Notes: a model not told the origin generated them from the letters alone. Positions 28,509 to 64,000 are shown, counted from the first letter of the stretch. The stretch is 64,000 nucleotides of DNA from a candidate division WOR-3 bacterium (GCA_039801905.1 JBDRVQ010000002.1:3147-67146); one strand, 5' to 3'. Numbers and translations: made by a program.

Positions 28509-31235
28509 ATGAAACGCTATCTTCTCGGCGCGATTTTTCTCGCGTTTTTAATCTGCCCAATTTATGGGGCATTTCGTTCCCATTATTCTATGGGACAAAC
28601 TTATCCCTTTACGCCGCTTCCTGATGCTTCCGCCCACTTAATCTCTTTCTCCAATGGTTTTATGATTGATACCCGTTTTGGGGAACCGAATTTGCCAGAA
28701 AACCTAAAAATTCTGGAGCAAGAAGGTAAAATTTACCACATCATTCAGTTTAAGGAGCCGGTGCGAAAAGATTTCTTACGAGAACTGGAAAGATTTGGGA
28801 TTAAGACTCTTGGTTATCTTCCCTATTATGCGGTCTTAGCGAAGATTGATGGGAAAGAAAAGGAAATCATCGCTTCCCTTCCTTTCGTCAATTGGGTTGG
28901 AATTTTCCAGCCAGCATATAAGATTCAGGATGTGCTTCTCAGTGCCCAGGGAATAAAAGAGATCGCGATTCAGGTGACGCCTGGGGAAGAGATTTTTCCC
29001 ATCGTGAATTTGATAAAAGAGAGGGGTGGTCAGATTGATGAAATTATGGTTACAGAATTCGGTAAGACAATCAAGGCGACTGTTGATGCGGAGATGATTC
29101 CGGCCATTGCCCATTTACCCGAAGTTTTATGGCTCCAGGAATGGACTGAACCAACCGTTTGCAATGATAATTGTCAGTGGGTTGTCCAGACCGGTTGGCG
29201 GGCTACCGCTCCTCCCCAAAATGATACCATCGCCCGTCGAGTTTGGACCAGAGGCGTAAGGGGCGAGAGAGTAATCCTTTCTACTACTGATACCGGATTG
29301 AACATCACTGGACCCGGACATGATATGTTCCGAGACCCGAATCTACCAGTGACCCCACCCGGAGTTTGGCCCACCCACCGCAAGGTCGTTGCCTATAAGG
29401 TCTACGGCACAAATAATACAACCGAAGACCTTTATCACGGTAGCCATGTTAACGGCACAGTCGCAGGAGATGATTCCATAAATGGTGGCACAAGTTATTA
29501 CGATGGAATGGCGATAAAGGCGCGTCTTTATTTTGTTGATGTGGAAAGGTCTGGTAGTCTTAATGTGCCGAACGATTTAACCACAGTTTGGGACACAGTC
29601 TATGCCGGTCGGGGATTACCCGATTCCCTCCGGCCGATAACCCAACACTCTGGCAGTTGGGGTTGGTCTAACTCCTCTGGCACCTATCTATTGCAGGATG
29701 CTTCAACTGATGCCTTTTCCTGGCTCAATAAAGACTTTCTTAACATTATGGCTGCGGGTAACGAATCAAGTAGAAGAAGGATTAGGAATCCGGGGATTGC
29801 CAAAAATGTGATCACTGTTGGTGCCTTAAATAACGGCACAGGTTCTAACACCATCGCTAGTTTCTCTTCCCGGGGACCGACTCAGGACAACCGGATAAAA
29901 CCAACCGTCTGTGCCCCGGGAGTAAATCTCTGGTCAGCAAACCGTACTGGAACCAATTCCTATCAGCAGATGTCTGGAACAAGTATGGCAACACCCGCAG
30001 TTAATGGTGCGGTTGGTCTAATGCGTTCTTATTTAAGGCAGGGTTATTATCCATCGGGCGAAGCCAACCTCTCTGATGCCCTTGATTACATCAGTGCCGC
30101 CTTATTGAGAGCAATGGCAATTGTTTCCGCGGACCCGAATGTTGGTTCTTATGTTGTTCCGGATAGTAATATCGGCTGGGGAAGAATTGATGTTGACTCG
30201 GTCCTTTACTTCACTGGGGACTTAAGAAAACTATATCTCAAAGACGATACATTTGGTCTCATAACCGGACAATATAAAGAAGAATTTTTCTCCGTTGATA
30301 CTGCGATACCTTTAAGAATTGCTTTGGTCTGGACCGATACCGCAGCGGCTCCCAATGCCAATCCAACTTTGGTTAATGACCTAAACTTAGAAGTGACCGC
30401 TCCCAACGGCACCTATTACCGAGGAAATCAATACAGTGCTGGTCAATCTATCCCCAATCCGAGTAATTGGGATAACCGAAATGTGGAAGAGTGCGTTCGC
30501 GTTAACTCACCACTGACCGGTCTCTGGCGCATCCGGGTTTATGGTCAGCAGGTTAGAACCAGTCGTGCTCAACCCTTTGCCTTTGCCATCACCGGCGCGA
30601 TCACCCCTTACCAACCGGATGTTGGTGTTCTTTCAATTATTGCTCCAACCGGACAGATTGATTCCGGAACCGTTGTCATTCCCAAAGCCGAAGTGAAAAA
30701 CTTTGGTGAGCAAGCGGTAGATTTTAATGTGAAATTTACTATCGGTAATTTCTATGAGGAAGATACCTCAATCACCCTTAATGCCGGAATGATTGATACG
30801 GTGATTTTTCCACAATGGATTGCCGAGCCCCTTGGCGTCCATATCGTCAAATGTACCACCGAACTTATGGGTGATATTAACCCAGCCAATGACCTGATGG
30901 TTGATTCCGTAGAAGTAATACCCTATGTTGGCATCAAAGAGATGGGAAAAGTTAAGTCGCTAACGACCTTGAAAGGTATCACACCCAATCCCTTCTCTTC
31001 CCAGACCGCACTGGAATTTATCCTCGCCCCCGAAGAAGAAATTTCTTTGGCGATTTATAACTCCTCTGGCTCTTTAATCCGAAAAATTGCTGCAAAACCT
31101 AACTCAGGGGTCTATAAGATAATCTGGGATGGTACTGATAATGAAGGAAAGAAGGCTCCCGCGGGTATCTATTTCTTCTCTCTTAAAACCAGAGATCTCT
31201 CCTTAACCCGGAAGGTCTTAAAGATAAACAACTAA
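28509..31235 (+). CDS. Secreted subtilisin-family (S8) serine protease with CARDB-like domain and T9SS C-terminal sorting domain
   Basis: Catalytic triad contexts TTDTGLN (Asp), HGSHVNGTVAGD (His) and SGTSMATPAVNG (Ser). C-terminal ..ITPNPFSSQTALEF..GIYFFSLKT..KVLKINN tail. Confidence 0.85.
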   Translation: MKRYLLGAIFLAFLICPIYGAFRSHYSMGQTYPFTPLPDASAHLISFSNGFMIDTRFGEPNLPENLKILEQEGKIYHIIQFKEPVRKDFLRELERFGIKTLGYLPYYAVLAKIDGKEKEIIASLPFVNWVGIFQPAYKIQDVLLSAQGIKEIAIQVTPGEEIFPIVNLIKERGGQIDEIMVTEFGKTIKATVDAEMIPAIAHLPEVLWLQEWTEPTVCNDNCQWVVQTGWRATAPPQNDTIARRVWTRGVRGERVILSTTDTGLNITGPGHDMFRDPNLPVTPPGVWPTHRKVVAYKVYGTNNTTEDLYHGSHVNGTVAGDDSINGGTSYYDGMAIKARLYFVDVERSGSLNVPNDLTTVWDTVYAGRGLPDSLRPITQHSGSWGWSNSSGTYLLQDASTDAFSWLNKDFLNIMAAGNESSRRRIRNPGIAKNVITVGALNNGTGSNTIASFSSRGPTQDNRIKPTVCAPGVNLWSANRTGTNSYQQMSGTSMATPAVNGAVGLMRSYLRQGYYPSGEANLSDALDYISAALLRAMAIVSADPNVGSYVVPDSNIGWGRIDVDSVLYFTGDLRKLYLKDDTFGLITGQYKEEFFSVDTAIPLRIALVWTDTAAAPNANPTLVNDLNLEVTAPNGTYYRGNQYSAGQSIPNPSNWDNRNVEECVRVNSPLTGLWRIRVYGQQVRTSRAQPFAFAITGAITPYQPDVGVLSIIAPTGQIDSGTVVIPKAEVKNFGEQAVDFNVKFTIGNFYEEDTSITLNAGMIDTVIFPQWIAEPLGVHIVKCTTELMGDINPANDLMVDSVEVIPYVGIKEMGKVKSLTTLKGITPNPFSSQTALEFILAPEEEISLAIYNSSGSLIRKIAAKPNSGVYKIIWDGTDNEGKKAPAGIYFFSLKTRDLSLTRKVLKINN

Positions 31236-32352: not shown

Positions 32353-33903
32353 ATGAAGAGGCTAATCTTTTTATCTATTATCTTTGGTATCTCCTTTGCC
32401 CGGATAATTGTTGTTCCGGATTCCGCACCAACGATTCAGGGTGGCTTAAATCTTGCCTTATCTGGGGATACGGTCTTGGTCAAGCCCGGCCAATATCGGG
32501 AGAATATCACTTGGCCCAATCGGGATGGGATTAAACTCTATTCTCTATCCGGTCCGGATTCCACAATCATCAATGGTGGTGGCAACGGACGGGTAATCAA
32601 TATCCCTTCGGGAATTACCCGAGCAACGGAAATTCGTGGCTTCAAAATCATAGGGGGTAAAGCTAATTCCGGTGCCGGTATTTATGCCGGTGGTTCCCCA
32701 ACTATTATCAGAAATAAAATTTGTAATAATACCTGCGCTGGTGGCCGAGATTATGGCGGTGGTATTTTTTGCTATTACGGCACTTCACCCTTAATCATCG
32801 GTAACGAAATTACCGATAATACCTGCTCGGATACCGCAACCTGGAATTATGGGGGCGGCATTTATGTTGATATGAACTCCACCGCGGAGATTTGCTATAA
32901 CCTAATCGCCCGCAATACCTGCTCTCAGGGTTATTGGAACTACGGGGCAGGGATTTATGTTGACTTACGAGCCTCTCCCCTAATCTATCAGAATGTGATT
33001 AAAGAGAATATTAACACCCTTGGTGACCGAGGACACGGGGCTGGGATTTATGTTAGTTATCAGGCTAATGCTCTCATCTTCTCTAATCTTATTATTGATA
33101 ACCGAAACACCTCTGGGTCTTGGAATTACGGTGGTGGAATTAAAGTTGATGGTAGGGCGAAAATTATTAATAATACAATAGCGGGAAATATCTGTTCGGG
33201 TGGCTATTGGGCTTATGGCGCCGGTATTTATATTGAAAGCGACACTTCCATCATCAAAAATAATATCATCGTTCAGAATAGTTCTACTCTTGGTTCCGGT
33301 ATTTACAATAATGGCATAGTAATCAATCGCTATAATGACATCTGGAATAATATTGGTGGCAATTACTATGGCTGTTCTCCGGGACCGGGTGAAATTTCTT
33401 TAGACCCAATCTTTGTTAGTGGTCCCTATGGACCCTATTATCTCAGTCAGACTGCTGCTGGTCAACCGGTAAATAGCCCTTGTGTTGATGCTGGTGATAC
33501 CTTATTGGGTACAACCCCATTAAATTTTGATTCGCTACTTCGCTCTTGGACGACCCGCACTGATTCCGTTCCGGACCTTTCGGTTTTAGATATGGGTTAT
33601 CACTATCCCCGAACTCAACCTTATGTCGGAATTTCTTCCATCTCCTCTAAAACTCCCATCCCTTTCCAAGTCTTCCCCAATCCTTTTCGCCATTTTGTAA
33701 AATTCTCACCGCTAATGAAACCGGCTCCGGCTCAAATTGAAATAACTGATATCTCGGGGAAAATTGTCTATCAATCAGCCTCCTTTAACTATCTCTGGAA
33801 AGGCGTTAATAATTTAGGTCGGCCGCTACCGGCGGGCATCTACTTCTACCAAATTAGGTATAAGAATCGTAACCATTCGGGACGGCTGATAAAGATTGAT
33901 TGA
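32353..33903 (+). CDS. Secreted right-handed beta-helix repeat protein with T9SS C-terminal domain (paralog of 22748-24271)
   Basis: N-terminal and C-terminal blocks align with the 22748 protein (..LSGDTVLVKPGQYRENITWPNRD.. and ..SLDPIFVSGPYGPYYLSQTAAGQPVNSPCVDAGDTLL..). C-terminal tail ..AGIYFYQIRYKNRNHSGRLIKID. Confidence 0.6.
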   Translation: MKRLIFLSIIFGISFARIIVVPDSAPTIQGGLNLALSGDTVLVKPGQYRENITWPNRDGIKLYSLSGPDSTIINGGGNGRVINIPSGITRATEIRGFKIIGGKANSGAGIYAGGSPTIIRNKICNNTCAGGRDYGGGIFCYYGTSPLIIGNEITDNTCSDTATWNYGGGIYVDMNSTAEICYNLIARNTCSQGYWNYGAGIYVDLRASPLIYQNVIKENINTLGDRGHGAGIYVSYQANALIFSNLIIDNRNTSGSWNYGGGIKVDGRAKIINNTIAGNICSGGYWAYGAGIYIESDTSIIKNNIIVQNSSTLGSGIYNNGIVINRYNDIWNNIGGNYYGCSPGPGEISLDPIFVSGPYGPYYLSQTAAGQPVNSPCVDAGDTLLGTTPLNFDSLLRSWTTRTDSVPDLSVLDMGYHYPRTQPYVGISSISSKTPIPFQVFPNPFRHFVKFSPLMKPAPAQIEITDISGKIVYQSASFNYLWKGVNNLGRPLPAGIYFYQIRYKNRNHSGRLIKID

Positions 33904-53477: not shown

Positions 53478-53588
53478 AAGATTATAAGGGAAAATTAAAA
53501 TTTTTCAACTTAGTGATAAGATTTAACCAGAACTCACCGCGAATAGTTGCCTTGACAAACGAATATTTTTTTTCATATAATTTTAATT

Positions 53589-55928
53589 ATGGAAAATAGG
53601 GAGGTAGCAATGCTTAAATCTCTCTCTATATTTTTCTTATTTTTTCTTGCCTTCGGGGCAAAAGATATTAGTCTTCCGAGCGAACAACCAATAAATCTCC
53701 AAACGCCTGAGACCGACCAAATATCTATTCCCCTTCTCTTAAACTATCAAGGTAAAATTACCGATAATATAGGTAATCCCGTTCGGGACTCTTCCTATTC
53801 CGTAACCTTTCGCTTATTTAATGTCCCTTCGGGGGGAACTGCTTTCTGGAATGAAACCCAGACCATTCAGACCCGAGCCGGTCTCTTCCATACCCTTTTA
53901 GGTAGTGTCACGCCAATCCCTTCTTTACCCCTTGATGGCAACTTATATTTAGAGATGCAGGTCAATCCCAATCCGGCAATGACGCCAAGAGTTAGAATTG
54001 TGAGTTCCGCCTATTCTTATATCGCAAGAAAGTCGGATAGCACAAATTACTTAAATCAGATGGGTGCTTCTACGGGACAGGTCTTAAAATGGAACGGAAC
54101 AACCTGGGCGCCGGGAAACGATGAAGTTGGTGGTGATAATGCTTGGGTGAGAGGAACACCGGATTCGGTCCTTTACACAATAAGGCGATTGGGTATTGCC
54201 CGTGGCGGTTCTAATAATATGCTTTACGGTTCTTATCGGTATACCCATACTAACTTAGGGGTTAGTTGCACTACCGGAACATCAGGGCAGAATTATTATT
54301 ATTGCACGGTTGGCGGTGGGATAAGTAATAAGGCGAGCGGCAATTGGGCAACAGTTAGCGGTGGTGGTTATAATACAGCGAGTATGGCTCAATCAACGGT
54401 TGGGGGCGGTTATTTTAATACGGCAAGTGGTGATTATGCCGTGATTGGTGGTGGAGTGAGTAACCGAGCGAGTGGCTATTCTTCCAGCATTACAGGTGGT
54501 TATAATAATACCGCAACCGCCGACTACGCCACAGTGGCTGGTGGTTATTGCGACTCAGCAAAAGGTAAATATGCAGGTGCCCTTTCTGGCTATCACAATG
54601 TAGCAGGAAGTGCGCTTGGTGATAGTGGAGCGGTGGTCGCGGGTGGTTATAATAACAACGCGAGGAGCATCTATACATTTATTGGCGGCGGTAGAAATAA
54701 CGCCACACTCAATAGTGGAGCGACAGTGAGCGGGGGCATAGGTAATGTCGCAAGCGGTAATCTCGCTACAATTGGTGGTGGCCAAGAAAATTTCGCCAGT
54801 AACTATTACACAACGGTAAGCGGCGGCTTCGGTGATACCGCCACCGGGTATTTAGCAACAATTGCTGGCGGAAGAGGGAATATTGCGAGTGGCAATTACT
54901 CAACGGTTAGCGGTGGTGTTTGGAATCGGGCATTTGGTAATTACGCGACGGTTTCCGGTGGTGACCGGAATATAGCAAACGGTAACTACGTCACAATTGG
55001 CGGTGGCGGCGGAAATAGAGCCAGCGTCAATTATTCGACAGTGGGCGGCGGGTATGAGAACTTTGCCGATAGTTCCTATGCGACAATTGGGGGTGGAAAT
55101 CAAAATCTCGCGCCTCGGGTTTATGCCACAATTGGTGGCGGAAGTGAGAATTTTGCCAATGGTCCTTATGCGACGATTGGTGGCGGATGGAAAAATTGGG
55201 CAACTGGCGACCTTGCTACAATTGGCGGTGGCTACGGAAATATGGCGAGTATTGATTACGCAACAGTTGCTGGTGGATATTGTGATACTTCCGCCGGTCC
55301 ATCAAGTTTCACAACCAATTCCCACTCCGTAGTCTATTTTATTTATGGCAACTCCGCTGCCTTTAATGGCCAGGCCGCAACCGCCTCCAATCAACTTCGC
55401 TGCGGCACACTTTCCAAAGCCGGTGGAAGTTTTACCATTGACCATCCCCTTGATCCATATAATAAAATCCTGAACCACTACTTCATTGAAGGACCGGAGA
55501 TGCTCAATATCTATCGGGGCAGTGTTGTCCTTGATGCCTCAGGCAGAGCGGAGGTGAGACTGCCTGATTACTTCTCCGCCCTGAACCGAAATCCACACAT
55601 CCAGTTGACCGGTGTTGGCTCTTCTGATGTCTATGTTGCCGAAGATATTAAAGGCAACGTCTTTGTCATTGGCGGTAAGCCGAGAACAAAAGTCTACTGG
55701 CTTGTAACCGGTGAACGGCAGGATATCTCAGCCGAGGCAATAAGAAGGTTAATGCCCGTTGAACAACCAAAGATTGGTGAACTTAAAGGAAGGATGCTTG
55801 ATGACGACTTCCTTGTTGGCTGTATGGAGCAGTTGGAGCGAGAAGGAAAGGCAAGTGGCATTGATTTCCGAACCGCAGCAGGGAGAAACAGGTATCAAGA
55901 TACGAAAAGGAGGATGAAAGGTGAATAA
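53589..55928 (+). CDS. Secreted protein with ~20 tandem ~20-aa Gly-rich beta-roll repeats (YadA-head/tail-fibre-like, consensus N-Y-ATIGGG--N-A-G) and a C-terminal 'IDHPLDP' tail-fibre-like domain
   Basis: Signal peptide MLKSLSIFFLFFLAFG; repeat region aa ~230-560; C-terminus ..GGSFTIDHPLDPYNKILNHYFIEGPEMLNIYRG... I could not run a family search. Confidence 0.5.
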   Translation: MENREVAMLKSLSIFFLFFLAFGAKDISLPSEQPINLQTPETDQISIPLLLNYQGKITDNIGNPVRDSSYSVTFRLFNVPSGGTAFWNETQTIQTRAGLFHTLLGSVTPIPSLPLDGNLYLEMQVNPNPAMTPRVRIVSSAYSYIARKSDSTNYLNQMGASTGQVLKWNGTTWAPGNDEVGGDNAWVRGTPDSVLYTIRRLGIARGGSNNMLYGSYRYTHTNLGVSCTTGTSGQNYYYCTVGGGISNKASGNWATVSGGGYNTASMAQSTVGGGYFNTASGDYAVIGGGVSNRASGYSSSITGGYNNTATADYATVAGGYCDSAKGKYAGALSGYHNVAGSALGDSGAVVAGGYNNNARSIYTFIGGGRNNATLNSGATVSGGIGNVASGNLATIGGGQENFASNYYTTVSGGFGDTATGYLATIAGGRGNIASGNYSTVSGGVWNRAFGNYATVSGGDRNIANGNYVTIGGGGGNRASVNYSTVGGGYENFADSSYATIGGGNQNLAPRVYATIGGGSENFANGPYATIGGGWKNWATGDLATIGGGYGNMASIDYATVAGGYCDTSAGPSSFTTNSHSVVYFIYGNSAAFNGQAATASNQLRCGTLSKAGGSFTIDHPLDPYNKILNHYFIEGPEMLNIYRGSVVLDASGRAEVRLPDYFSALNRNPHIQLTGVGSSDVYVAEDIKGNVFVIGGKPRTKVYWLVTGERQDISAEAIRRLMPVEQPKIGELKGRMLDDDFLVGCMEQLEREGKASGIDFRTAAGRNRYQDTKRRMKGE

Positions 55929-56430
55929 GTTAGCCCTTATTTTAAGCCTTTTCTTTCTTCTCACCTATGCCCAATACGAATGCGATTGGAACTTGGTAAG
56001 TTCTGGTGGAACAAGTATGAGCGTCGGAAATCTCTCTGCCCAGGTCTCAGTTTCCCAAACCGCAGTTGGTATTATCCAGAATGCTATCCAGGTGGCCCAG
56101 ATTGGTTTCTGGGTGATTGATACCGCCCTTGTTGGAATTAAGGAAATCTCTTCTCAAAAACTTCCCTTAAAGACGGAACTCTTCCCGATAAGACCAAACC
56201 CATTCTCTAAAAATACCCTAATCTCTTATTCCCTATCAGAAGAAACGAATGTCTCAATTATTATTTACAATACCTGTGGAGAACTGATAAGAAATCTCTC
56301 CTTTCCCAGGGTGAAACCAGGAATATATTCCTTTACCTTCTCCGGAGAGAAACTGGGAAGGGGAGTCTACTTCTTAAACTTCTCAGCAGGAAGATATAAG
56401 GCAGTAAGGAAGATTATCCTTATGAGATAG
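55921..56430 (+). CDS. Small secreted protein with T9SS C-terminal sorting domain, translationally coupled to the repeat protein
   Basis: Signal peptide; C-terminal ..IRPNPFSKNTLISYSL..GVYFLNFSAGRYKAVRKIILMR. Overlaps the upstream stop by 8 nt. Confidence 0.55.
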   Translation: MNKLALILSLFFLLTYAQYECDWNLVSSGGTSMSVGNLSAQVSVSQTAVGIIQNAIQVAQIGFWVIDTALVGIKEISSQKLPLKTELFPIRPNPFSKNTLISYSLSEETNVSIIIYNTCGELIRNLSFPRVKPGIYSFTFSGEKLGRGVYFLNFSAGRYKAVRKIILMR

Positions 56431-56431
56431 G

Positions 56432-56460
56432 TTGACAAATTATAAGTATTAGTTTATAAT
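56432..56460 (+). promoter_or_regulatory. Consensus sigma70 promoter TTGACA-17-TATAAT, 42 bp upstream of repeat-element core copy 4
   Basis: gTTGACAaattataagtattagttTATAATt. Confidence 0.6.
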
Positions 56461-57052: not shown

Positions 57053-58081
57053 ATGAATCAGGAAGGGGTTGATAAGAAAGTGAAGGTCGCCTTAGATGCG
57101 ATGGGGAGTGACCTTGCCCCAGAACCAGAATTGGCTGGAACACTTCTCGCCTTAGAGGAAGATAAGGATTTAGAAGTAATTTTGGTGGGAAGAGAAGAGA
57201 TCTTAAAAAGATTTCTCCAGAATTATCCAAAAATTAAAATCTATCCCGCGCAAGAAAGAATTATGATGGATGATTCCCCAACCGAGGTCCTCCGGAAAAA
57301 ACCGGATTCCTCTTTAGCCAAAGCAGTTTATCTCTTAAAAACAAAAGCGGTGGATGCCATAGTTAGTGCCGGAAATACTGGTGCTTTAATCGCCTATTCT
57401 TTAACCGTCCTCGGTCGGATCCCAGGAGTTCTAAGACCAGCAGTTGCCATATTAATCCCTCAGGTGAGTGGTTATTCCTTATTGACCGATGTTGGTGCCC
57501 ATCCTGATCCAAAACCAATTCATCTCTACCAATTCGCGAAAATGGCTTCCCTCGTCGCCGCTTATCTCTTCCATAAGCCCAATCCCCGGGTTGGTTTATT
57601 AAATGTCGGCCGGGAAGAGAATAAAGGAAGCGAGTTAATCCAAAATACCTACCAACTGTTAAAAGAATCGGAATTAAACTTCATTGGTAATATTGAAGGT
57701 TGTGATGTTTTTAAGGGACTGGCGGATGTCATCGTCTGCGACGGGTTTGTTGGCAATATCATCCTCAAATTTGGCGAAGGGCTTTTGGAGATTTTAACCA
57801 AGGGGATAAAAGATTATCTCTCTTCGGAGACAAAATACCGGATGCGCCGCTGGCTGGCAAAACCGGTCCTCCAAGAGTTTGTCTCCCGGCTTGATTATGA
57901 AGAACAAGGAGGCGGTTTATTATTGGGGGTTAACGGCGTGGTAGTCATCTCCCATGGTCGCTCCGGACCAAAGGCGATTAAAAACGCCCTCCATACCGCT
58001 TCCCTATTCTATCGCGAGAAGGTGATTGAAAATTTGAGAAACTCCTTCGCCCAAGAGAAATCTTTAACCACCGAAGAATGA
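57053..58081 (+). CDS. plsX: Phosphate acyltransferase PlsX
   Basis: KVALDAMGSDLAPE..VSAGNTGALIA..VGNIILKFGEG. Confidence 0.9.
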   Translation: MNQEGVDKKVKVALDAMGSDLAPEPELAGTLLALEEDKDLEVILVGREEILKRFLQNYPKIKIYPAQERIMMDDSPTEVLRKKPDSSLAKAVYLLKTKAVDAIVSAGNTGALIAYSLTVLGRIPGVLRPAVAILIPQVSGYSLLTDVGAHPDPKPIHLYQFAKMASLVAAYLFHKPNPRVGLLNVGREENKGSELIQNTYQLLKESELNFIGNIEGCDVFKGLADVIVCDGFVGNIILKFGEGLLEILTKGIKDYLSSETKYRMRRWLAKPVLQEFVSRLDYEEQGGGLLLGVNGVVVISHGRSGPKAIKNALHTASLFYREKVIENLRNSFAQEKSLTTEE

Positions 58082-59151
58082 GAAGACTAATCCTCTTTTC
58101 TACTCTTTTCTTCCTATTTTGTCAAAAATCACCCGTGGGCTTTGAGGAGATGGCAAGAGGAAACCTTTCCCACTTCCAAGAAACCCTTAACCCACGCGAT
58201 TCCTTATCTTTTGGTATCTTTTATCCTTGTGGCAATGCCTCCTTTCTCTTTCTGGGGAAAAATGCTAAATATGAGAGTCGGGTTCTCTTCTCTTTTCCCA
58301 TAAACGACTCCGCTCGGGAGAATATCACAAAAATTTCCCTTTGGCTTTATACCCAGGATACCACCCCCTACCAATTTCGGATTTATCCCTTAACTACCCA
58401 GTGGTCGGCGAATGCCACCTGGCGGATGGCGGCTCCGGATATTCAATGGATTCATCCGGGTGGTGATTTTCTCAACCTGCCAATCGCCGAAGGAAGAGTA
58501 GTAAAGGATTCATTTTCCTTAGAGGTCCCCTTAAACCTCTTAGATACCATCCTTTCCACCACTGGTTTCATCCTCATCCCGGAAGAGAACCGAGATTTCA
58601 ATTTTGCCTCATTTAAGAAAACTGCAAAGTTAATTTTTACCTACGGTGATAAAAACCGAACCTTCCTCTCTTCTTTTGCCACTTACATTACTAATTTCTT
58701 AGACACCATTCCTGATTCCTTTATCATTGGCTCCGGCTATGTCTTTCGCACCTACCTCTCTTACCCCTTCTCCTTAGGAAAAGAGAATAAAATTGCCGAA
58801 GGAGAAATCTCCCTTCTCTTAGACCCCGCCTCTTCTTATTTTATCCGCGACACCTTAGAGATTGCTATTTTCCAACTGAAAGAGAACTTTTGGTCCAGAA
58901 GGGAGAAGACGGAGTATTACGAAATCCCAATTGCCCGAAAGACAGTTATCCTGCCCAATGATACCCTCATCCGGATTCCGATAAAAACCCTTTTGGAAAA
59001 CTGGCAAAAGGAACCCGAGAAAAACTTTGGTCTCTATCTCAGCCTCTATCCCCAATACCAATTCCCCTCTTATCTGACAATAAAAAGGGATACCCTCTCT
59101 TTCCGAATTAACTTCACCTATATCCCACCGGTTAAGGACCGGTTCCCATGA
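58078..59151 (+). CDS. Hypothetical secreted protein/lipoprotein; possibly a DNRLRE-like carbohydrate-binding-type domain (uncertain)
   Basis: N-terminal signal with Cys (..LFFLFCQKS). The ..ISLWLYTQDTTPYQFRIYPLTTQWSANATW segment fits an 'L.L.V...Y.V..W.E..VTW' type motif. ATGA overlap with plsX. Confidence 0.35.
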   Translation: MRRLILFSTLFFLFCQKSPVGFEEMARGNLSHFQETLNPRDSLSFGIFYPCGNASFLFLGKNAKYESRVLFSFPINDSARENITKISLWLYTQDTTPYQFRIYPLTTQWSANATWRMAAPDIQWIHPGGDFLNLPIAEGRVVKDSFSLEVPLNLLDTILSTTGFILIPEENRDFNFASFKKTAKLIFTYGDKNRTFLSSFATYITNFLDTIPDSFIIGSGYVFRTYLSYPFSLGKENKIAEGEISLLLDPASSYFIRDTLEIAIFQLKENFWSRREKTEYYEIPIARKTVILPNDTLIRIPIKTLLENWQKEPEKNFGLYLSLYPQYQFPSYLTIKRDTLSFRINFTYIPPVKDRFP

Positions 59152-60260
59152 AGAGAAAATTGCTATTCACTATTCTCCTTTTTGGGAATTGGCTCTTTGG
59201 CCAATCCTTCTTTTCTTCTCGGGGTTTGGGAGAGGAAATCCTCTCTTATGATGCCTACCAATCTTCTATTGGTAAAAGTTATATCTTCTCTTATGAAAAT
59301 CCTTCCTTTCCCCTTAAATTTAATAGCACAGTTACCATCGGTAATATCACCCAGCAGGTCTTTTTTGCCCAAGAAAAAGAAGATAAAAGATTTCTTTATC
59401 ACTTCCAAATTGATTATGTCAAAATCTCCATCCCAACCTTTTACCAGACCAATCTTGGTTTGGGGCTGAGAAGACGCTTCTCTCAAGATTTTGACATCTA
59501 TTCTGAAACTGCTGGTGGTTACTATTGGCATATTATTGGTAAAGGAGGAATAAATTCAGTATCTCTCTCCTTAGGAAAGAGATACAAAGATTTTTTCTCT
59601 CTTGGCTTTTCCTATCAATATCTCTTTGGAGGTAGTGAAGAGGAATGGTCTTTTGAGACCAAAGAGATTTCTCTCACCCAAGAGACCATCTTTGGTCAAT
59701 ATCAAGGCTTCTCTTACCAATTCTCCCTTTTAGGTAGAATTGGTCCTCTCCAATTGGGTAGCGCACTGGAAATCTTTTCGCCAATTAAGTATCTTGGCTA
59801 TCTATCCGTTCCCTCAGAAACTACCGAAAAAAAGATTAGCCTGCCCCTAATTTTTAATTTCGGCAGCGCTTACAATTTTAGCGAATACCGTTCCCTCCTC
59901 TTCGGTCTCAACTTTAAGAACTGGAAAAAGATAAAATTAGATGGTGAAGTAGACCCTAATTTTACCAGTGGTTTTCTCTTCTCTTTGGGATTTAGCGATT
60001 ACTGGCAGGAGAAAATTCCTTTCCGCTTCGGATACAGCGAAAACTTCTGGTATCTTTTAACCAAAGCCGGAAAAAGGATTGGCGAAAGTTCCTTAAACTT
60101 TGGCACCTCAATCAAAATTCCCAAGTTTGGTTTCTTTGACCTCAATTTAGAAACCTTTTACCGCCGGGGTGATGCCTTAAAAGAATTTGGGATTAAAATC
60201 CTTTTCAGCCCCCGATACGACGAAACCTGGAAGAAACGAGAACGACGCTGGGGTTATTAA
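59148..60260 (+). CDS. Hypothetical secreted (possibly outer-membrane beta-barrel) protein
   Basis: Signal peptide MKRKLLFTILLFGNWLFGQ. Alternating amphipathic beta-strand-like segments. C-terminal aromatic residue (..RRWGY). ATGA overlap with the upstream gene. Confidence 0.35.
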   Translation: MKRKLLFTILLFGNWLFGQSFFSSRGLGEEILSYDAYQSSIGKSYIFSYENPSFPLKFNSTVTIGNITQQVFFAQEKEDKRFLYHFQIDYVKISIPTFYQTNLGLGLRRRFSQDFDIYSETAGGYYWHIIGKGGINSVSLSLGKRYKDFFSLGFSYQYLFGGSEEEWSFETKEISLTQETIFGQYQGFSYQFSLLGRIGPLQLGSALEIFSPIKYLGYLSVPSETTEKKISLPLIFNFGSAYNFSEYRSLLFGLNFKNWKKIKLDGEVDPNFTSGFLFSLGFSDYWQEKIPFRFGYSENFWYLLTKAGKRIGESSLNFGTSIKIPKFGFFDLNLETFYRRGDALKEFGIKILFSPRYDETWKKRERRWGY

Positions 60261-61056: not shown

Positions 61057-64000
61057 CTACTTCACAACGATTAACTTTCTATCTTCTTTGTATCCGCCTG
61101 AGGCGGATTCAAACCGTAAGAGATAGATTCCGGCCGGTAGTTTCTTTATCGTAAACTCACCCTTATCGCTCTTTGCAGAGTAAACCAAGTTGCCTAAGGT
61201 GTTATAGACTTTGAGAATCGCAACTTCTTTCTTCGGCAGGTTGTAGTAAACCTTGGTTAAGCCTTTGGTCGGATTGGAGTTAATCTGGATAAAAGTCTTA
61301 CGACTTAATTCCTGGGTCCCAATATTCGATGAAGGAAGGGCTAAAGTTAAATCTTCACCGGTATACTTCCAGATAGAAAGGGTATTATTTCCCTTTAAGG
61401 CATAGATTGTGCCATCGGTCCAAGTGCAGAGTCCACCACCACCCTTCACATATTTCTTATCTGGCATCTTGGGGATTGTCTCTAAGCCTGCCCATTTGGT
61501 CGTTGGGTCAAATGACCAGAACTCTTTGGTATTATTTCCCTTGAAGGCATAAATCTTACCGCTCTTTAAGGTCATTGCCGCACCTTCGCCAACTTTCTTC
61601 TTCTTATTCCACATTGGATGAGTGAAAGGCATTCCGGAATCCTTTTCCCAGGTATTAGCCGAGATGTCATACTTGTAGAACTCATTATACTTACCCCTTA
61701 AAGCATAGAGGGTATTATCATCATAGGCGATTAAACAAGAGCCATCGCTATAACCTTTACCGATATAAGTGCCTTCTGGTGCTTTTGGTAGAGTCTCAAT
61801 CCAAGTGTTATTGGTGCAGTCAAAGGCATAAAACTCATTGGTCTTTGAACCCTTTAAGAGATAGACAAAACCATTAACATAAGCCATTCCCGTGCCACCT
61901 TTCAGAGCCTTGCCACCACCCGCTGGAATTGGTGGTAATGATTCCCAAGCGTTAGTTTCGGTATCATAGCGCCAGAACTGTAGGGTATTTGTGCCAGAAG
62001 CAAAGTAGAGGTATTTTGTGCCGTCATAGACCATACCGGTTCCTTTCTTCACTCCTTTCTTACCCGCAATTGGCACCGAATCCAGTTGCGTTATGGCATT
62101 CTCTGGAATAAAGGAGTAGAAATCTTTCGTATTATTTCCCTTCACAATGTAGATCTTATTCCCACCGGAAACAATCAGACCACCGGATTTAATTCTTTTG
62201 TTTGACGGCGCAAGGGGTAAGTCAGAAACTTTTACCCAAGCAGTGGTGGGAATTTTCGGACGGACATTAACGATTTTCCTTTGACAATCATTCTCCGGTT
62301 GGACATCGCCATTAAGCATCGTTGAACATTGGGCAAGGAAATCACCAACCTTCTCCGGTAGCCAGAGGTCAAAATCAATGATTGTTTCCAAATCCGGAGA
62401 TAGCGAAGAAATCTCTCTCATACTGTAATAATCGCTAATTTGGAAAATGACGCCAAAAGAAGCAGGTTCGGAACCAAAGTTCTTTATCTTGGCTTTTGGC
62501 GTCATTGCCATTCCGGAATCCACAGTATCAGAAGGGGCAAGAATTTCTATCACCCCAACATCTAAAACCCGAACATATACCGAACCGATAATTTTATCAT
62601 TTTCCTGCCTCTGGTCACCAAAAAGTTGGGTCGTGCATTTGACCGAAATTTCGCCTGCTGGTTCGGCGGTCCAATCGGAGAAAGAGATAATTCTCTCTTC
62701 ATCGGGCAAAAGTTCCGAAACGACCATTTCTGCGGCATAATCGCCAATCAAAAGGAAGGTGTTAAAAGATACAGGAGTGTTGCCAAAATTTTTCACCTTG
62801 ATCTGCGGGGTAATGACCGAGCCGAGGTCAATGGTATCAATTGGGGCTAAAATCTCAATTGGGGAAACATCTAAAACTTGGACAAATACCGAATCAATTT
62901 TTTTATCGTTTCCGGGTTGATTGTCACCGGATAGTTCGGTTGTGCAGGTGACCGCAATCTTTCCCCGCGGACTCGCAAACCAGTTGGGAAAGGTTAAATA
63001 CCGATAGGTAAGAGGGGTGTGATTAATAACCGTCGCCGTGTAGTTATAATCTATGCCAATCTTCATCCGCACCGTATAAGTTTCTACGGTATTGCCATAA
63101 TTATAAACCGAACAAGCCGGTGTGATAACCGTTCCGGAGTCAATTATCCCAGTGGGCATTAAAATCTTTGTGCAGCCAACATCCTTTATCCCGATCCTTC
63201 TCACCTCAACTGACCCGGTCTGCCGGTCATTACTTAGCACCATATCATTAGAAAGTCGGGTGGAACAACTTACCAAATGGGTACCCAGTTGGTTGGCATT
63301 CCAAACCGGAAAGGTTAGATAAATCTTAGTTAATGGCTGATGATTAGAAACCGTAGCCGTTTGGTCATAAAATGTGCCAATCTTCATTCGCACCGTGTAA
63401 TTTTCTGTTGTGCCACCGAAATTATAAACAGTGCAAGCGGGGGTGATAATAATTCCTGAGTCCAAAACACCCGTTGGTGAAGAAATGGCAATTACCCCAA
63501 CATCGTGTAAAACAATGGGATTGGAGCCGATGGTGATAGAAAAGTTTACCGCCTGGGTCATCGTCTGGCCATCGTTTAAATAAGTTAGTTCTAACCTTAA
63601 AGGGATATTTCTCCCGGGCTCGGCTTGGGGTAAGCAATAGAAACGGAATTGATTGGTTCGGTTATCCGTAGAATCTCTCCTTCGGCATCTGGGGAAAGAC
63701 TTAATACTATCAAGAACGATAACCATTGGGTCAAGGGATTTCAATTTACCGCTAACGGCATAGGCAGAATCCAAGGGATGGATTGCCCGATTCCTTACTC
63801 GGAACCAGACTGAAGCGGTTTCTCCGGGGTCCAATTGTAAAGTTCGGTTGCCATTTAGGGAATCGTTAATAAAAACTTGCCTGGGCTCAAAGAAGACACC
63901 GGCAATGCGTGTTAGATATAAATTATTAGGACGATTCCGGCGACACTCATTATGAATATAAGCCGAATCATTCCAACCCTGCCAGAAATCCAAGGAACAC
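61057..64000 (-). CDS. Large secreted protein: tandem CARDB-like Ig domains plus Kelch-type beta-propeller repeats plus T9SS C-terminal sorting domain. The N-terminus probably runs off the window end
   Basis: About 100-aa repeats (..VLDVGVIEILAPSDTVDSG..PKAKIKNFGSEPASF..). Kelch-like repeats (..IYALKGNNT..FWSYD..TNAWE..). C-terminal ..KLPAGIYLLRFESASGGYKEDRKLIVVK tail. The track start at 63993 abuts the window end, so the true N-terminus may lie beyond it. Confidence 0.6.
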   Translation of the reverse strand, partial: CSLDFWQGWNDSAYIHNECRRNRPNNLYLTRIAGVFFEPRQVFINDSLNGNRTLQLDPGETASVWFRVRNRAIHPLDSAYAVSGKLKSLDPMVIVLDSIKSFPRCRRRDSTDNRTNQFRFYCLPQAEPGRNIPLRLELTYLNDGQTMTQAVNFSITIGSNPIVLHDVGVIAISSPTGVLDSGIIITPACTVYNFGGTTENYTVRMKIGTFYDQTATVSNHQPLTKIYLTFPVWNANQLGTHLVSCSTRLSNDMVLSNDRQTGSVEVRRIGIKDVGCTKILMPTGIIDSGTVITPACSVYNYGNTVETYTVRMKIGIDYNYTATVINHTPLTYRYLTFPNWFASPRGKIAVTCTTELSGDNQPGNDKKIDSVFVQVLDVSPIEILAPIDTIDLGSVITPQIKVKNFGNTPVSFNTFLLIGDYAAEMVVSELLPDEERIISFSDWTAEPAGEISVKCTTQLFGDQRQENDKIIGSVYVRVLDVGVIEILAPSDTVDSGMAMTPKAKIKNFGSEPASFGVIFQISDYYSMREISSLSPDLETIIDFDLWLPEKVGDFLAQCSTMLNGDVQPENDCQRKIVNVRPKIPTTAWVKVSDLPLAPSNKRIKSGGLIVSGGNKIYIVKGNNTKDFYSFIPENAITQLDSVPIAGKKGVKKGTGMVYDGTKYLYFASGTNTLQFWRYDTETNAWESLPPIPAGGGKALKGGTGMAYVNGFVYLLKGSKTNEFYAFDCTNNTWIETLPKAPEGTYIGKGYSDGSCLIAYDDNTLYALRGKYNEFYKYDISANTWEKDSGMPFTHPMWNKKKKVGEGAAMTLKSGKIYAFKGNNTKEFWSFDPTTKWAGLETIPKMPDKKYVKGGGGLCTWTDGTIYALKGNNTLSIWKYTGEDLTLALPSSNIGTQELSRKTFIQINSNPTKGLTKVYYNLPKKEVAILKVYNTLGNLVYSAKSDKGEFTIKKLPAGIYLLRFESASGGYKEDRKLIVVK

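What the first reader, a model, noticed from the sequence alone, without database searches (positions are those of the whole stretch)
53589..56430. Two-gene cassette: 779-aa beta-roll repeat protein with tail-fibre-like C-terminal 'IDHPLDP' domain plus an overlapping small T9SS-CTD protein
The large protein has a signal peptide but no T9SS tail. The small downstream protein (8-nt overlap) has one. The large protein pairs trimeric-adhesin/phage-tail-fibre-like Gly-rich repeats with a C-terminal domain also found in tail-fibre-annotated proteins. This could be a surface fibre with a T9SS-delivered anchor or partner, or a domesticated phage receptor-binding protein.
Basis: partly seen in the sequence, partly recalled or inferred. 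Interest (0 to 1): 0.55.

Follow-up and report, generated by a model that had tools for sequence, protein, structure and literature searches.

The report
Surface fibre gene with T9SS adaptor
A WOR-3 bacterium encodes a long adhesin-like surface fibre, related to the prey-grabbing fibres of Bdellovibrio, followed by a tiny secreted partner protein that accompanies such fibres in several phyla and may be the unknown piece that fixes them to the cell surface.

Summary
Both ORFs exist as described: large 53589..55928, small 55921..56430, with an 8-nt overlap. The large protein's true start is probably ATG 53610.

The large protein has four parts:
- a signal peptide;
- a conserved N-terminal domain, remotely homologous to the base domain of Bdellovibrio MAT fibres;
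- about 21 UspA1-type 15-aa beta-roll repeats;
- a C-terminal beta-sandwich cap ('IDHPLDP') that also occurs in a few phage tail fibres.

The small protein has a signal peptide, an uncharacterised 58-aa beta module and a type A T9SS sorting domain.

In 75 of 77 evaluable metagenomic loci, a small-protein homologue lies within 300 nt downstream of a fibre gene. The fibre's C-terminal cap varies between loci (IDHPLDP, Peptidase_S74, others). The N-domain was present in nearly every upstream fibre gene that was complete. In some other lineages the small protein keeps its beta module but carries a dockerin instead of the T9SS domain.

No phage genes lie nearby.

Best reading: a cellular MAT-like fibre with a dedicated surface-anchoring adaptor that acts on the fibre's base. 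The linkage is shown. The anchoring mechanism is inferred.

The parts
53552..53581 (+). Consensus sigma-70-type promoter-like site (TTGACA-18 nt-TATAAT, 12/12) for the two-gene operon
   Evidence: sequence read
53589..55928 (+). Fibre gene ('B'). The longest ORF is 779 aa. The probable true start is ATG 53610 (772 aa), behind RBS GGGAGG 53598-53603.
   Evidence: It is 100% identical to P0001 (WOR-3 MAG), and more than 3,800 homologues were found.
53610..53660 (+). Sec signal peptide (MLKSLSIFFLFFLAFGA|KD). There is no lipobox Cys.
   Evidence: Read from the translation. No signal-peptide predictor was run.
53715..54059 (+). Conserved N-terminal beta-rich 'base' domain (residues 43-157), a remote homologue of the Bdellovibrio MAT N-domain
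   Evidence: NCBIfam Bdello_MAT_N matched 18/18 family members, best E 1e-9. The window protein scored E 1.6e-5, 24.7 bits, below the 60-bit cut-off. A family HMM gives 180 bits. The profile finds 56,653 clusters in 1.84e9 representative proteins.
54315..55274 (+). About 21 x 15-aa left-handed beta-roll repeats (residues 243-562), UspA1/YadA-head type
   Evidence: PDB 3pr7 UspA1 E 4e-26. Periodicity at lags 15 and 30. No DNA-level tandem repeat.
55404..55799 (+). C-terminal cap domain (residues 606-737) with the IDHPLDP motif (residues 617-623, nt 55437-55457) and a beta-sandwich core (residues 639-710)
   Evidence: AF2 pLDDT above 90 in the core. Foldseek matches to the Pam1 tailspike C-terminus, R-pyocin fibre foot and phage tail fibres. 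tblastn matches in 11 phage records. PHROGs 28536 and 17490. The same domain occurs in many phyla.
55800..55925 (+). Helical, charged C-terminal extension (residues 738-779; DDDFLxGCMEQLEREGK..FRTxxGRxRYE). It was found in loci L001-L047, mostly WOR-3 plus one Zixibacteria and one Gemmatimonadota locus.
   Evidence: Alignment A1; AF2 helices; 'ext' tag present only in loci L001-L047
55908..55913 (+). AGGAGG ribosome-binding site for the small gene, inside the end of the fibre gene (translational coupling)
55921..56430 (+). Small partner gene ('s'), 169 aa, GTG start, 8-nt overlap with the fibre gene
55921..55971 (+). Signal peptide of the small protein (MNKLALILSLFFLLTYA|Q). Gln at the predicted mature N-terminus is conserved in the family.
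   Evidence: Read from alignments A2, A3 and A5
55972..56145 (+). 58-aa beta module (residues 18-75; QYxCDW..GGG..GQTAxG..IGFW..VGIxE). It is the defining, uncharacterised part of the partner.
   Evidence: Family HMM 75 bits. No Pfam, NCBIfam or PDB relative. AF2 predicts four short strands at pLDDT below 50.
56194..56427 (+). Type A T9SS C-terminal sorting domain (residues 92-169)
   Evidence: PF18962 32.3 bits (cut-off 27) and TIGR04183 32.7 bits (cut-off 23). AF2 pLDDT 78-93. Foldseek matches to the mirolase, NucA and RemA CTDs.

Best explanation
This is a self-contained two-gene operon of a candidate-division WOR-3 bacterium. It makes a cell-surface fibre and a dedicated adaptor for it.

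Gene 1 encodes a Sec-exported fibre of the MAT (mosaic adhesive trimer) kind. After the signal peptide comes a conserved N-terminal base domain. Then come a stalk or head of about 21 UspA1-type beta-roll turns, a phage-tail-fibre-like beta-sandwich cap, and a lineage-specific helical tail.

Gene 2 is translationally coupled to gene 1. It encodes a small protein with a signal peptide, a 58-aa beta module and a type A T9SS sorting domain.

Proposed mechanism:
1. The adaptor is exported through the T9SS.
2. Its sorting domain is removed and the new C-terminus is fixed to the cell surface, as happens to type A cargo in Porphyromonas.
3. Its beta module binds the fibre's conserved N-terminal domain.
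4. The fibre therefore stands on the surface with stalk and cap pointing outward, where the beta-roll and/or the cap mediate adhesion.

Shown here: the domain anatomy, the homologies, the tight and near-universal gene linkage, the swapping of caps on the fibre, and the swapping of anchoring modules on the adaptor.

Inferred: physical binding of the module to the N-domain, trimer formation, surface attachment, the adhesive function, and how the fibre itself crosses the outer membrane.

I put about 0.8 on 'MAT-like surface fibre plus a functionally dedicated partner'. I put about 0.4-0.45 on the specific anchoring-adaptor mechanism. The confidence given for this entry is for the full statement, mechanism included.
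For: Anatomy.
- UspA1 head match, E 4e-26, with 15-aa periodicity.
- 18/18 N-domains hit NCBIfam Bdello_MAT_N.
- The T9SS CTD is above the curated cut-offs.
- The cap has a beta-sandwich fold with phage tail-fibre relatives.

Operon.
- Consensus promoter, two ribosome-binding sites and an 8-nt overlap.

Linkage, forward direction.
- In GTDB genomes the gene order is one to four fibre genes followed by one small gene, with gaps of -4 to 30 nt.
- By my count, roughly 30 of about 43 arrays in loci L001-L047 whose 3' end is visible end with the small gene.
- The same arrangement occurs in Zixibacteria, Gemmatimonadota, Ignavibacteriales and KSB1 loci.

Linkage, reverse direction.
- 75 of 77 evaluable small genes in metagenome contigs have a fibre C-terminus within 300 nt upstream.
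- The other two have a fibre gene further upstream.

Which part the partner goes with.
- The upstream fibres carry at least five different C-terminal caps, including Peptidase_S74.
- Nearly every upstream fibre gene that was complete carries the N-domain.

Adaptor logic.
- The beta module is kept while the C-terminal half changes: T9SS CTD, Dockerin_1, or Kelch propeller plus CTD.
- All of these are secretion or surface-attachment modules.

Other points.
- No third conserved neighbour was found.
- Caulton et al. 2024 (PMC10769870) state that the MAT N-domain should bind a surface element that is still unidentified.
Against: - No physical interaction was tested.
- The mirror-tree signal between the module and the fibre N-domain (r 0.79) is no stronger than between the CTD and the N-domain (r 0.79). 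There is therefore no specific co-evolution signal.
- About 30% of arrays in loci L001-L047, and many N-domain fibres in other phyla (Eisenbacteria, several Bacteroidota loci), have no detectable small gene next to them.
- The fibre has no known route across the outer membrane.
- The match to Bdello_MAT_N is below NCBI's curated cut-off.
- The IDHPLDP cap is as conserved within the WOR-3-type family as the N-domain (69% against 63% mean column identity). This sits badly with a simple 'variable receptor-binding tip'.
- The fate of type A CTD cargo (anchored or released) is not known for WOR-3.
Confidence: 0.45

Rival explanations
1. Piggyback (hitch-hiker) secretion. The small protein binds the folded fibre in the periplasm, and its CTD takes the whole complex through the T9SS translocon. 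The CTD-less fibre would reach the surface only in this way. This is compatible with the adaptor also serving as the anchor afterwards.
For: - The fibre has a signal peptide but no CTD and no autotransporter barrel.
- The pair is translationally coupled.
- The T9SS moves folded and very large cargo (review PMC9251779).
- No other conserved export gene sits next to the cassette.
- The window encodes at least four further CTD proteins, so the organism uses the T9SS heavily.
Against: - Variants of the small protein in other lineages carry a dockerin and no CTD, yet their fibres have the same build.
- Bdellovibrio MAT fibres reach the surface (PMC10769870). As far as I know Bdellovibrio has no T9SS, since the system is known only from the FCB group. 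I did not check this here.
- No piggyback T9SS cargo turned up in the literature searches.
- Some fibre genes have no adjacent small gene.
Confidence: 0.2
2. Assembly chaperone. The small protein acts like a phage tail-fibre assembly protein (Tfa), helping the fibre trimerise, and is not part of the final surface structure.
For: The gene order, with a small gene directly after the fibre gene, is the classical arrangement for tail fibre and Tfa. The fibre cap is related to phage tail-fibre tips.
Against: - Tfa-type chaperones act on the C-terminal tip, whereas here the caps vary and the partner stays the same.
- S74-capped fibres already carry their own intramolecular chaperone and still have the partner.
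- The partner has its own signal peptide plus a surface-targeting domain.
- It has no similarity to any annotated PHROG.
Confidence: 0.1
3. Two co-transcribed but functionally independent surface proteins. The small one would be a minor T9SS cargo with its own role.
For: No interaction was demonstrated. There is no specific co-evolution signal. The beta module is not confidently folded by AF2.
Against: - 75/77 adjacency across divergent lineages, with gaps of -4 to 30 nt.
- The module was never found away from a fibre locus.
- One small gene closes each tandem fibre array.
Confidence: 0.1
4. Domesticated phage or tailocin receptor-binding protein, or a prophage remnant.
For: The cap domain is homologous to the C-termini of tail-fibre or minor-tail proteins in Arthrobacter phage Mufasa8 and in cyanophages P-SSM2, P-SSM5 and S-TIM (about 35-37% identity). 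It has fold matches to the R-pyocin fibre foot and the Pam1 tailspike, and it matches two PHROGs.
Against: - No phage structural genes were found among the ORFs scanned; the immediate flanks are asd, ppdK, yceG, rpmF and plsX.
- The N-domain is a cellular superfamily of about 56,000 clusters that starts right after a signal peptide.
- Only 11 of 50,697 phage records carry the cap.
- The IMG/VR scans found 0 copies of the small module and 1 distant cap.
Confidence: 0.04
5. A classical trimeric autotransporter adhesin (type Vc secretion).
For: Strong match of the repeats to the UspA1 head.
Against: There is no YadA-type C-terminal beta-barrel anchor. The C-terminus is a beta-sandwich plus helices. 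The conserved attachment-type domain is N-terminal.
Confidence: 0.02

Closest known systems
Bdellovibrio bacteriovorus MAT (mosaic adhesive trimer) chimeric fibres (Caulton et al. 2024, PMC10769870)
   Same: - A signal peptide is followed directly by a conserved beta-rich N-domain (NCBIfam Bdello_MAT_N hits 18/18).
- The stalk is long and fibre-like.
- The C-terminal caps are interchangeable, with both S74 and non-S74 types in the family.
- There is no obvious export signal beyond Sec.
   Different: - The match is below the curated subfamily cut-off.
- The stalk here is a UspA1-type beta-roll.
- The cap is the IDHPLDP beta-sandwich plus a helical tail.
- The host is a WOR-3 bacterium with no known predatory life-style.
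- A conserved small partner gene is present. None is mentioned in the parts of the paper I read, and Bdellovibrio loci could not be inspected here.
Trimeric autotransporter adhesin heads (Moraxella UspA1, Yersinia YadA)
   Same: 15-aa Gly/Asn-rich left-handed beta-roll repeats; E 4e-26 to PDB 3pr7.
   Different: No C-terminal translocator barrel and opposite polarity of the conserved end, so it is not a type Vc system.
Phage tail fibres, R-type pyocin fibres and their Tfa chaperones
   Same: Beta-sandwich C-terminal cap with true phage homologues. A small gene immediately follows the fibre gene.
   Different: The family is cellular and sits in a housekeeping context. The small protein is exported, carries a T9SS or dockerin module, and tracks the N-terminal domain rather than the tip.
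Type A T9SS cargo proteins (for example P. gingivalis RgpB, T. forsythia mirolase)
   Same: The small protein has a signal peptide and a C-terminal Ig-like sorting domain that scores above the TIGR04183 and PF18962 cut-offs.
   Different: The passenger is only about 75 residues, with no enzyme or adhesin domain. Its apparent role is to serve another protein.
Cohesin-dockerin surface anchoring (cellulosome-type)
   Same: In Zixibacteria- and Ignavibacteriales-type loci the partner keeps the beta module but ends in Dockerin_1 repeats. It is again a small adaptor that ties something to a surface scaffold.
   Different: The window's protein uses a T9SS CTD instead. No cohesin partner was looked for.

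Membership tests
MAT (mosaic adhesive trimer) fibre superfamily | Conserved beta-rich N-terminal domain of about 130 aa immediately after the signal peptide | tested here: met
   Bdello_MAT_N (NF053851) is the only consistent NCBIfam hit: 18/18 family N-domains, best E 1e-9, window domain E 1.6e-5. The domain starts at residue 43, directly after the signal peptide. This shows homology at superfamily level only.
MAT (mosaic adhesive trimer) fibre superfamily | Score above NCBI's curated cut-off for the Bdellovibrio MAT_N subfamily model (60 bits) | tested here: not met
   24.7 bits for the window protein's N-domain. It is therefore not a member of the Bdellovibrio subfamily proper.
MAT (mosaic adhesive trimer) fibre superfamily | Mosaic C-terminal caps on a constant base, including S74 and non-S74 types | tested here: met
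   Relatives with the same N-domain end in IDHPLDP+ext, IDHPLDP core only, Peptidase_S74 (33-37 bits, cut-off 22), 'RFSWRVLAKW' or 'FDWIA' types.
MAT (mosaic adhesive trimer) fibre superfamily | Trimeric fibre exposed on the cell surface | not testable with these tools
   Only monomer AF2 was available. Trimer formation is inferred from the trimeric UspA1 head and from phage-type caps.
Trimeric autotransporter adhesin (type Vc) | YadA/UspA1-type head repeats | tested here: met
   3pr7 E 4e-26 and 3ntn E 9e-4
Trimeric autotransporter adhesin (type Vc) | C-terminal YadA-like beta-barrel membrane anchor | tested here: not met
   No Pfam or NCBIfam hit in the C-terminal 208 aa. AF2 shows a beta-sandwich plus three helices.
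T9SS type A cargo (small protein) | N-terminal Sec signal peptide plus a C-terminal sorting domain above the curated thresholds | tested here: met
   PF18962 32.3 bits against 27; TIGR04183 32.7 bits against 23. The signal peptide was read from the sequence.
T9SS type A cargo (small protein) | Ig-like beta-sandwich fold of the CTD | tested here: met
   AF2 pLDDT 78-93 with six strands over residues 98-167. Foldseek matches to the mirolase CTD 8qb1, the NucA CTD 8glk_D and the RemA CTD 8gl6_D have TM (target) 0.60-0.65 but weak E-values of 7e-3 to 1e-2.
T9SS type A cargo (small protein) | T9SS machinery present; CTD cleaved and cargo attached to the surface | not tested
   No T9SS machinery gene was among the window ORFs scanned. 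Only indirect support exists: at least four other CTD-bearing proteins are in the window. Processing needs experiments.
Phage tail fibre / receptor-binding protein | Cap domain homologous to phage tail-fibre C-termini | tested here: met
   BFVD hits at 30-40% identity. tblastn hits in 11 phage records, annotated as minor tail, tail fibre or virion structural protein.
Phage tail fibre / receptor-binding protein | Encoded within a phage or tailocin structural gene cluster | tested here: not met
   Housekeeping neighbours and no phage genes among the ORFs scanned in 64 kb. The cassette is not in IMG/VR.
Phage tail-fibre assembly chaperone (Tfa) (small protein) | Cytoplasmic small protein with similarity to Tfa families that acts on the fibre tip | tested here: not met
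   It has a signal peptide and a T9SS CTD. There is no annotated PHROG hit. The partner is constant while the tips vary.

The most novel reading that the evidence does not exclude
The 58-aa beta module of the small protein is the long-missing cell-surface receptor for the conserved N-terminal base domain of MAT-type fibres, a superfamily of about 56,000 protein clusters. In T9SS-bearing lineages the CTD-tagged, roughly 6-kDa adaptor would also carry the CTD-less trimeric fibre through the T9SS. That would be the first case of hitch-hiker secretion by this system.
Probability: 0.15. Interest if true: 0.8.

Novelty: new variant of a known kind. Interest (0 to 1): 0.6.

Why it matters
Fibres with this N-terminal domain are very common: about 56,000 clusters at 50% identity. 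Only the Bdellovibrio MAT proteins have been studied, and their authors state that the surface element holding the N-domain is unknown.

A small gene that is almost never separated from such fibres gives a concrete, testable candidate for that element. It keeps one 58-aa module while swapping a T9SS sorting domain for a dockerin.

If it also turns out to take the fibre through the T9SS, it would add a new mode of cargo recognition to that system.

For WOR-3, an uncultured and little-understood lineage, it identifies a large expanded family of probable adhesins.

Tried and rejected
- Pfam, PHROGs and PDB sequence searches of the whole large protein, its N- and C-terminal parts and the small protein's N-half found no family for the cap, the base or the beta module. 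The only hit was the weak Bdello_MAT_N match.
It was repeated with the closer set A3.
- A word-indexed search with the module profile returned only 28 hits, mostly short fragments. It could not describe the module's architectures.
- Mirror-tree and partial Mantel test of the module against the fibre N-domain on 41 pairs: r 0.79, identical to the CTD control, so it is uninformative.
- A search for a third conserved neighbour, such as an outer-membrane barrel or export factor, found none.
- I considered a disulfide link between the conserved Cys of the module (YxCDW) and the Cys in the fibre's helical tail (GCMEQL). I dropped it because the module keeps its Cys next to fibres that have quite different caps.
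- AF2 of the small protein gave no confident fold for the module. No multimer prediction was possible.
- Literature searches for T9SS piggyback secretion, T9SS in WOR-3, and T9SS with S74 or tail fibres found nothing relevant.
- The tandem-repeat finder found no DNA-level repeats in the gene.
Full report
**Observation**

ORFs 53589..55928 (+, 779 aa) and 55921..56430 (+, 169 aa, GTG start) exist and overlap by 8 nt. The large gene stops at TAA 55926-55928. NCBI's annotation of the same MAG contig (GCA_039801945.1, candidate division WOR-3) calls the same two genes.

A 12/12 consensus promoter-like site (TTGACA-18-TATAAT) ends at 53581. A GGGAGG ribosome-binding site lies 6 nt before ATG 53610. 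The large protein therefore most likely starts at 53610 with MLKSLSIFFLFFLAFGA. The small gene's GTG is preceded by AGGAGG at 55908-55913, inside the end of the large gene. This is the usual picture of translational coupling. A second consensus promoter-like site directly after the small gene (56432..56460) suggests that rpmF-plsX downstream form a separate unit.

**Anatomy of the large protein**

- After the signal peptide, residues 43-157 form a domain conserved in every full-length relative (alignment A4; HMM 180 bits).
- The only curated model this domain matches is NCBIfam Bdello_MAT_N, the N-terminal domain of Bdellovibrio 'mosaic adhesive trimer' fibres. All 18 of 18 family members hit it, best E 1e-9. 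The window protein scores E 1.6e-5 and 24.7 bits, well under the 60-bit subfamily cut-off.
- A profile of the domain finds 56,653 clusters (50% identity) among 1.84 billion representative proteins. In those listed it almost always starts at residue 20-60, directly after a signal peptide.
- Residues 243-562 are about 21 repeats of 15 aa (GGxxNxAxGxYATIx), with autocorrelation peaks at lags 15 and 30. They match the crystal structure sequence of the UspA1 head at E 4e-26. That structure is the left-handed beta-roll of trimeric autotransporter adhesins. There is no DNA-level tandem repeat, so the array is old.
- The last 174 residues form the module with 'IDHPLDP' (residues 617-623). It is conserved in nearly all of the 120 best relatives (A1).
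- AF2 on A1 gives a confident beta-sandwich (protein residues 639-710, pLDDT above 90), a poorly defined N-terminal strand region that holds the motif, and three helices.
- Foldseek places the sandwich next to the C-terminal domains of the cyanophage Pam1 tailspike and the R1/R2 pyocin fibres, though weakly (E about 1e-3). In BFVD it matches phage tail-fibre and minor-tail proteins at 30-40% identity.
- tblastn finds the domain in 11 of 50,697 phage records: Arthrobacter phage Mufasa8 minor tail protein, and tail fibre, virion or hypothetical proteins of P-SSM2, P-SSM5 and S-TIM phages. It also matches two PHROGs of unknown function.
- The first 132 residues of the module occur at the C-terminus of proteins in WOR-3, Zixibacteria, Gemmatimonadota, Eisenbacteria, Acidobacteriota, Bacteroidota, Ignavibacteriales, KSB1 and even Actinomycetota. 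The helical tail (DDDFLxGCMEQLEREGK...FRT..GR.RYE) was found only in loci L001-L047, mostly WOR-3.
- There is no T9SS sorting domain and no autotransporter barrel.

**Anatomy of the small protein**

- It has a signal peptide, then a 58-aa module (residues 18-75; QYxCDW..GGG..GQTAxG..IGFW..VGIxE), a short linker and a type A T9SS sorting domain.
- The sorting domain scores above the Pfam and TIGRFAM cut-offs.
- AF2 models the sorting domain confidently. It resembles the solved CTDs of mirolase, NucA and RemA.
- The module is predicted as four short strands at pLDDT below 50. It has no relative in Pfam, NCBIfam or the PDB.

**Linkage, forward direction**

A scan of one genome per GTDB species with the cap alignment gave 78 loci. 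In loci L001-L047 the gene order is one to four tandem fibre genes followed by one small gene. The fibre-to-small gaps are -4 to 30 nt, whereas small-to-next-fibre gaps are 84-260 nt. By my count, roughly 30 of about 43 arrays whose 3' end is visible end with the small gene. The same arrangement appears in Zixibacteria, Gemmatimonadota, Ignavibacteriales and KSB1 loci.

**Linkage, reverse direction**

A scan of JGI metagenome contigs with the module alone gave 80 loci and 87 small genes. Of the 77 with at least 300 nt of upstream sequence, 75 have the C-terminus of a fibre gene within 300 nt upstream on the same strand. The other two, L102 and L156, have a fibre gene one or two genes further up. 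The small protein was thus never found unpaired.

**Which part of the fibre the partner goes with**

The fibres directly upstream of small genes end in at least five different caps:
- IDHPLDP with the helical tail;
- IDHPLDP core with another tail;
- Peptidase_S74, above the Pfam cut-off;
- an 'RFSWRVLAKWKGNE' type;
- an 'FDWIA' type.

Nearly every upstream fibre gene that was complete carries the N-terminal domain. The partner therefore belongs to the fibre family, and most simply to its base, not to the IDHPLDP cap.

**Modularity of the partner**

The beta module is kept while the rest changes:
- a T9SS CTD in WOR-3, Ignavibacteriales and KSB1;
- two Dockerin_1 repeats in L055, L057, L063 and L075;
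- a Kelch propeller plus CTD in L020 and L037.

All of these are export or surface-attachment modules. This is what one expects of an adaptor whose constant end holds the fibre and whose variable end holds the cell.

No third gene is conserved next to the cassette.

**Context**

The flanking genes are aspartate-semialdehyde dehydrogenase, pyruvate phosphate dikinase, YceG, L32 and PlsX. The rest of the window is metabolic or other T9SS cargo. No phage gene was seen among the ORFs scanned. IMG/VR holds no copy of the module and only one distant cap.

**Mechanism**

Best-supported reading: a cellular MAT-like trimeric surface fibre with a dedicated adaptor. The adaptor is delivered to the surface by the T9SS and holds the fibre by its N-terminal base. 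The beta-roll and cap then point outward for adhesion.

Shown: the anatomy, the homologies, the operon signals, the linkage, and the swapping of domains on both proteins.

Inferred: binding, trimerisation, CTD processing, surface attachment, adhesion, and the fibre's route across the outer membrane.

The piggyback variant, in which the adaptor's CTD takes the fibre through the T9SS, is attractive because the fibre has no export signal of its own. It is weakened by the dockerin variants and by MAT fibres in Bdellovibrio, which as far as I know lacks a T9SS. No precedent was found in the literature.

A Tfa-like chaperone role is unlikely because the partner is itself exported, is indifferent to the cap, and accompanies S74 fibres that already carry their own chaperone.

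The mirror-tree test was uninformative.

One nuance concerns the cap. The IDHPLDP cap is as conserved within the WOR-3-type family as the base (69% against 63% mean column identity). It may therefore act as a folding or trimerisation cap rather than a variable receptor-binding tip. The beta-roll could then be the adhesive part, as it is in UspA1.

**Comparison and novelty**

- It works like, and is distantly related to, the MAT fibres, but it fails the curated Bdellovibrio subfamily threshold.
- It shares the head repeat of trimeric autotransporters but lacks their defining anchor.
- It shares a cap with some phage tail fibres but is not phage-encoded.
- The conserved small partner with a swappable anchoring module is not described in any paper I could find.
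- I file it as a new variant of a known kind.

**Scores**

Interest is 0.6. The window's copy is one of thousands. The two-gene logic it exposes offers a direct handle on an explicitly open question.

Noticed in passing
window 53589..53610: The annotated start (ATG 53589) lies only 7 nt after the -10 box of a perfect promoter-like site. ATG 53610, behind a GGGAGG ribosome-binding site, is the more likely start. The deposited 779-aa protein is probably 7 residues too long.
   Followed up: partly
window 56432..56460: A second 12/12 consensus promoter-like site (TTGACA-17-TATAAT) starts 2 nt after the small gene's stop, in front of rpmF-plsX. No terminator-like site lies between the two units.
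   Followed up: no
window 22748..24271 (-), 28509..31235 (+), 32353..33903 (+), 61057..63993 (-): Four more proteins with T9SS sorting domains in the same 64 kb: two right-handed beta-helix proteins, an S8 subtilase, and a 978-aa Kelch/CARDB protein. The organism appears to rely heavily on the T9SS, although no machinery gene was among the ORFs I scanned.
   Followed up: partly
window 58078..59151 and 59148..60260 (+): Two 4-nt-overlapping ORFs (357 and 370 aa) downstream of plsX. Both have signal-peptide-like N-termini and no Pfam match. The second is rich in alternating aromatic and polar stretches, like an outer-membrane barrel.
   Followed up: no
small-protein family (alignments A2, A3, A5); window 55972: The predicted mature N-terminus of the small protein is Gln in nearly all members (..A|Q-x-Y-x-C-D-W). 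The 'Q-rule' (pyroglutamate N-termini) is reported as specific to Bacteroidetes and not to the whole FCB group (PMC5837995). This looks like a family-specific feature. The fibre itself does not follow it.
   Followed up: no
L061:2532-3044 and L073:4400-4975 (Bacteroidota MAGs): A divergent small gene (signal peptide, 'GGS..(F)xWS[VI]GEM..TQG[VL]LQP', then a CTD-like 'VFPNP' tail) lies between or just upstream of fibre genes that carry the same N-domain. The pairing may therefore extend to Bacteroidota, where genetics is possible. Homology to the WOR-3 module was not established.
   Followed up: partly
L020:6532-7989 and L037:6589-8097: Long variants of the partner (485-502 aa) in which a Kelch-type beta-propeller is inserted between the beta module and the CTD. 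The partner can apparently carry a functional domain of its own.
   Followed up: partly
L056, L068, L072, L078 (Actinomycetota, including Gordonia tangerina): The IDHPLDP cap core also ends proteins of monoderm Actinomycetota. These lack the MAT-like N-domain and have no small partner gene. The cap is thus a freely shuffled module well beyond diderm fibres.
   Followed up: no
window 54001..56000: GC content rises to 0.48 against 0.41-0.44 around it. The rise coincides with the Gly/Asn-rich repeat region (GGN codons), so composition alone is no sign of recent transfer.
   Followed up: no
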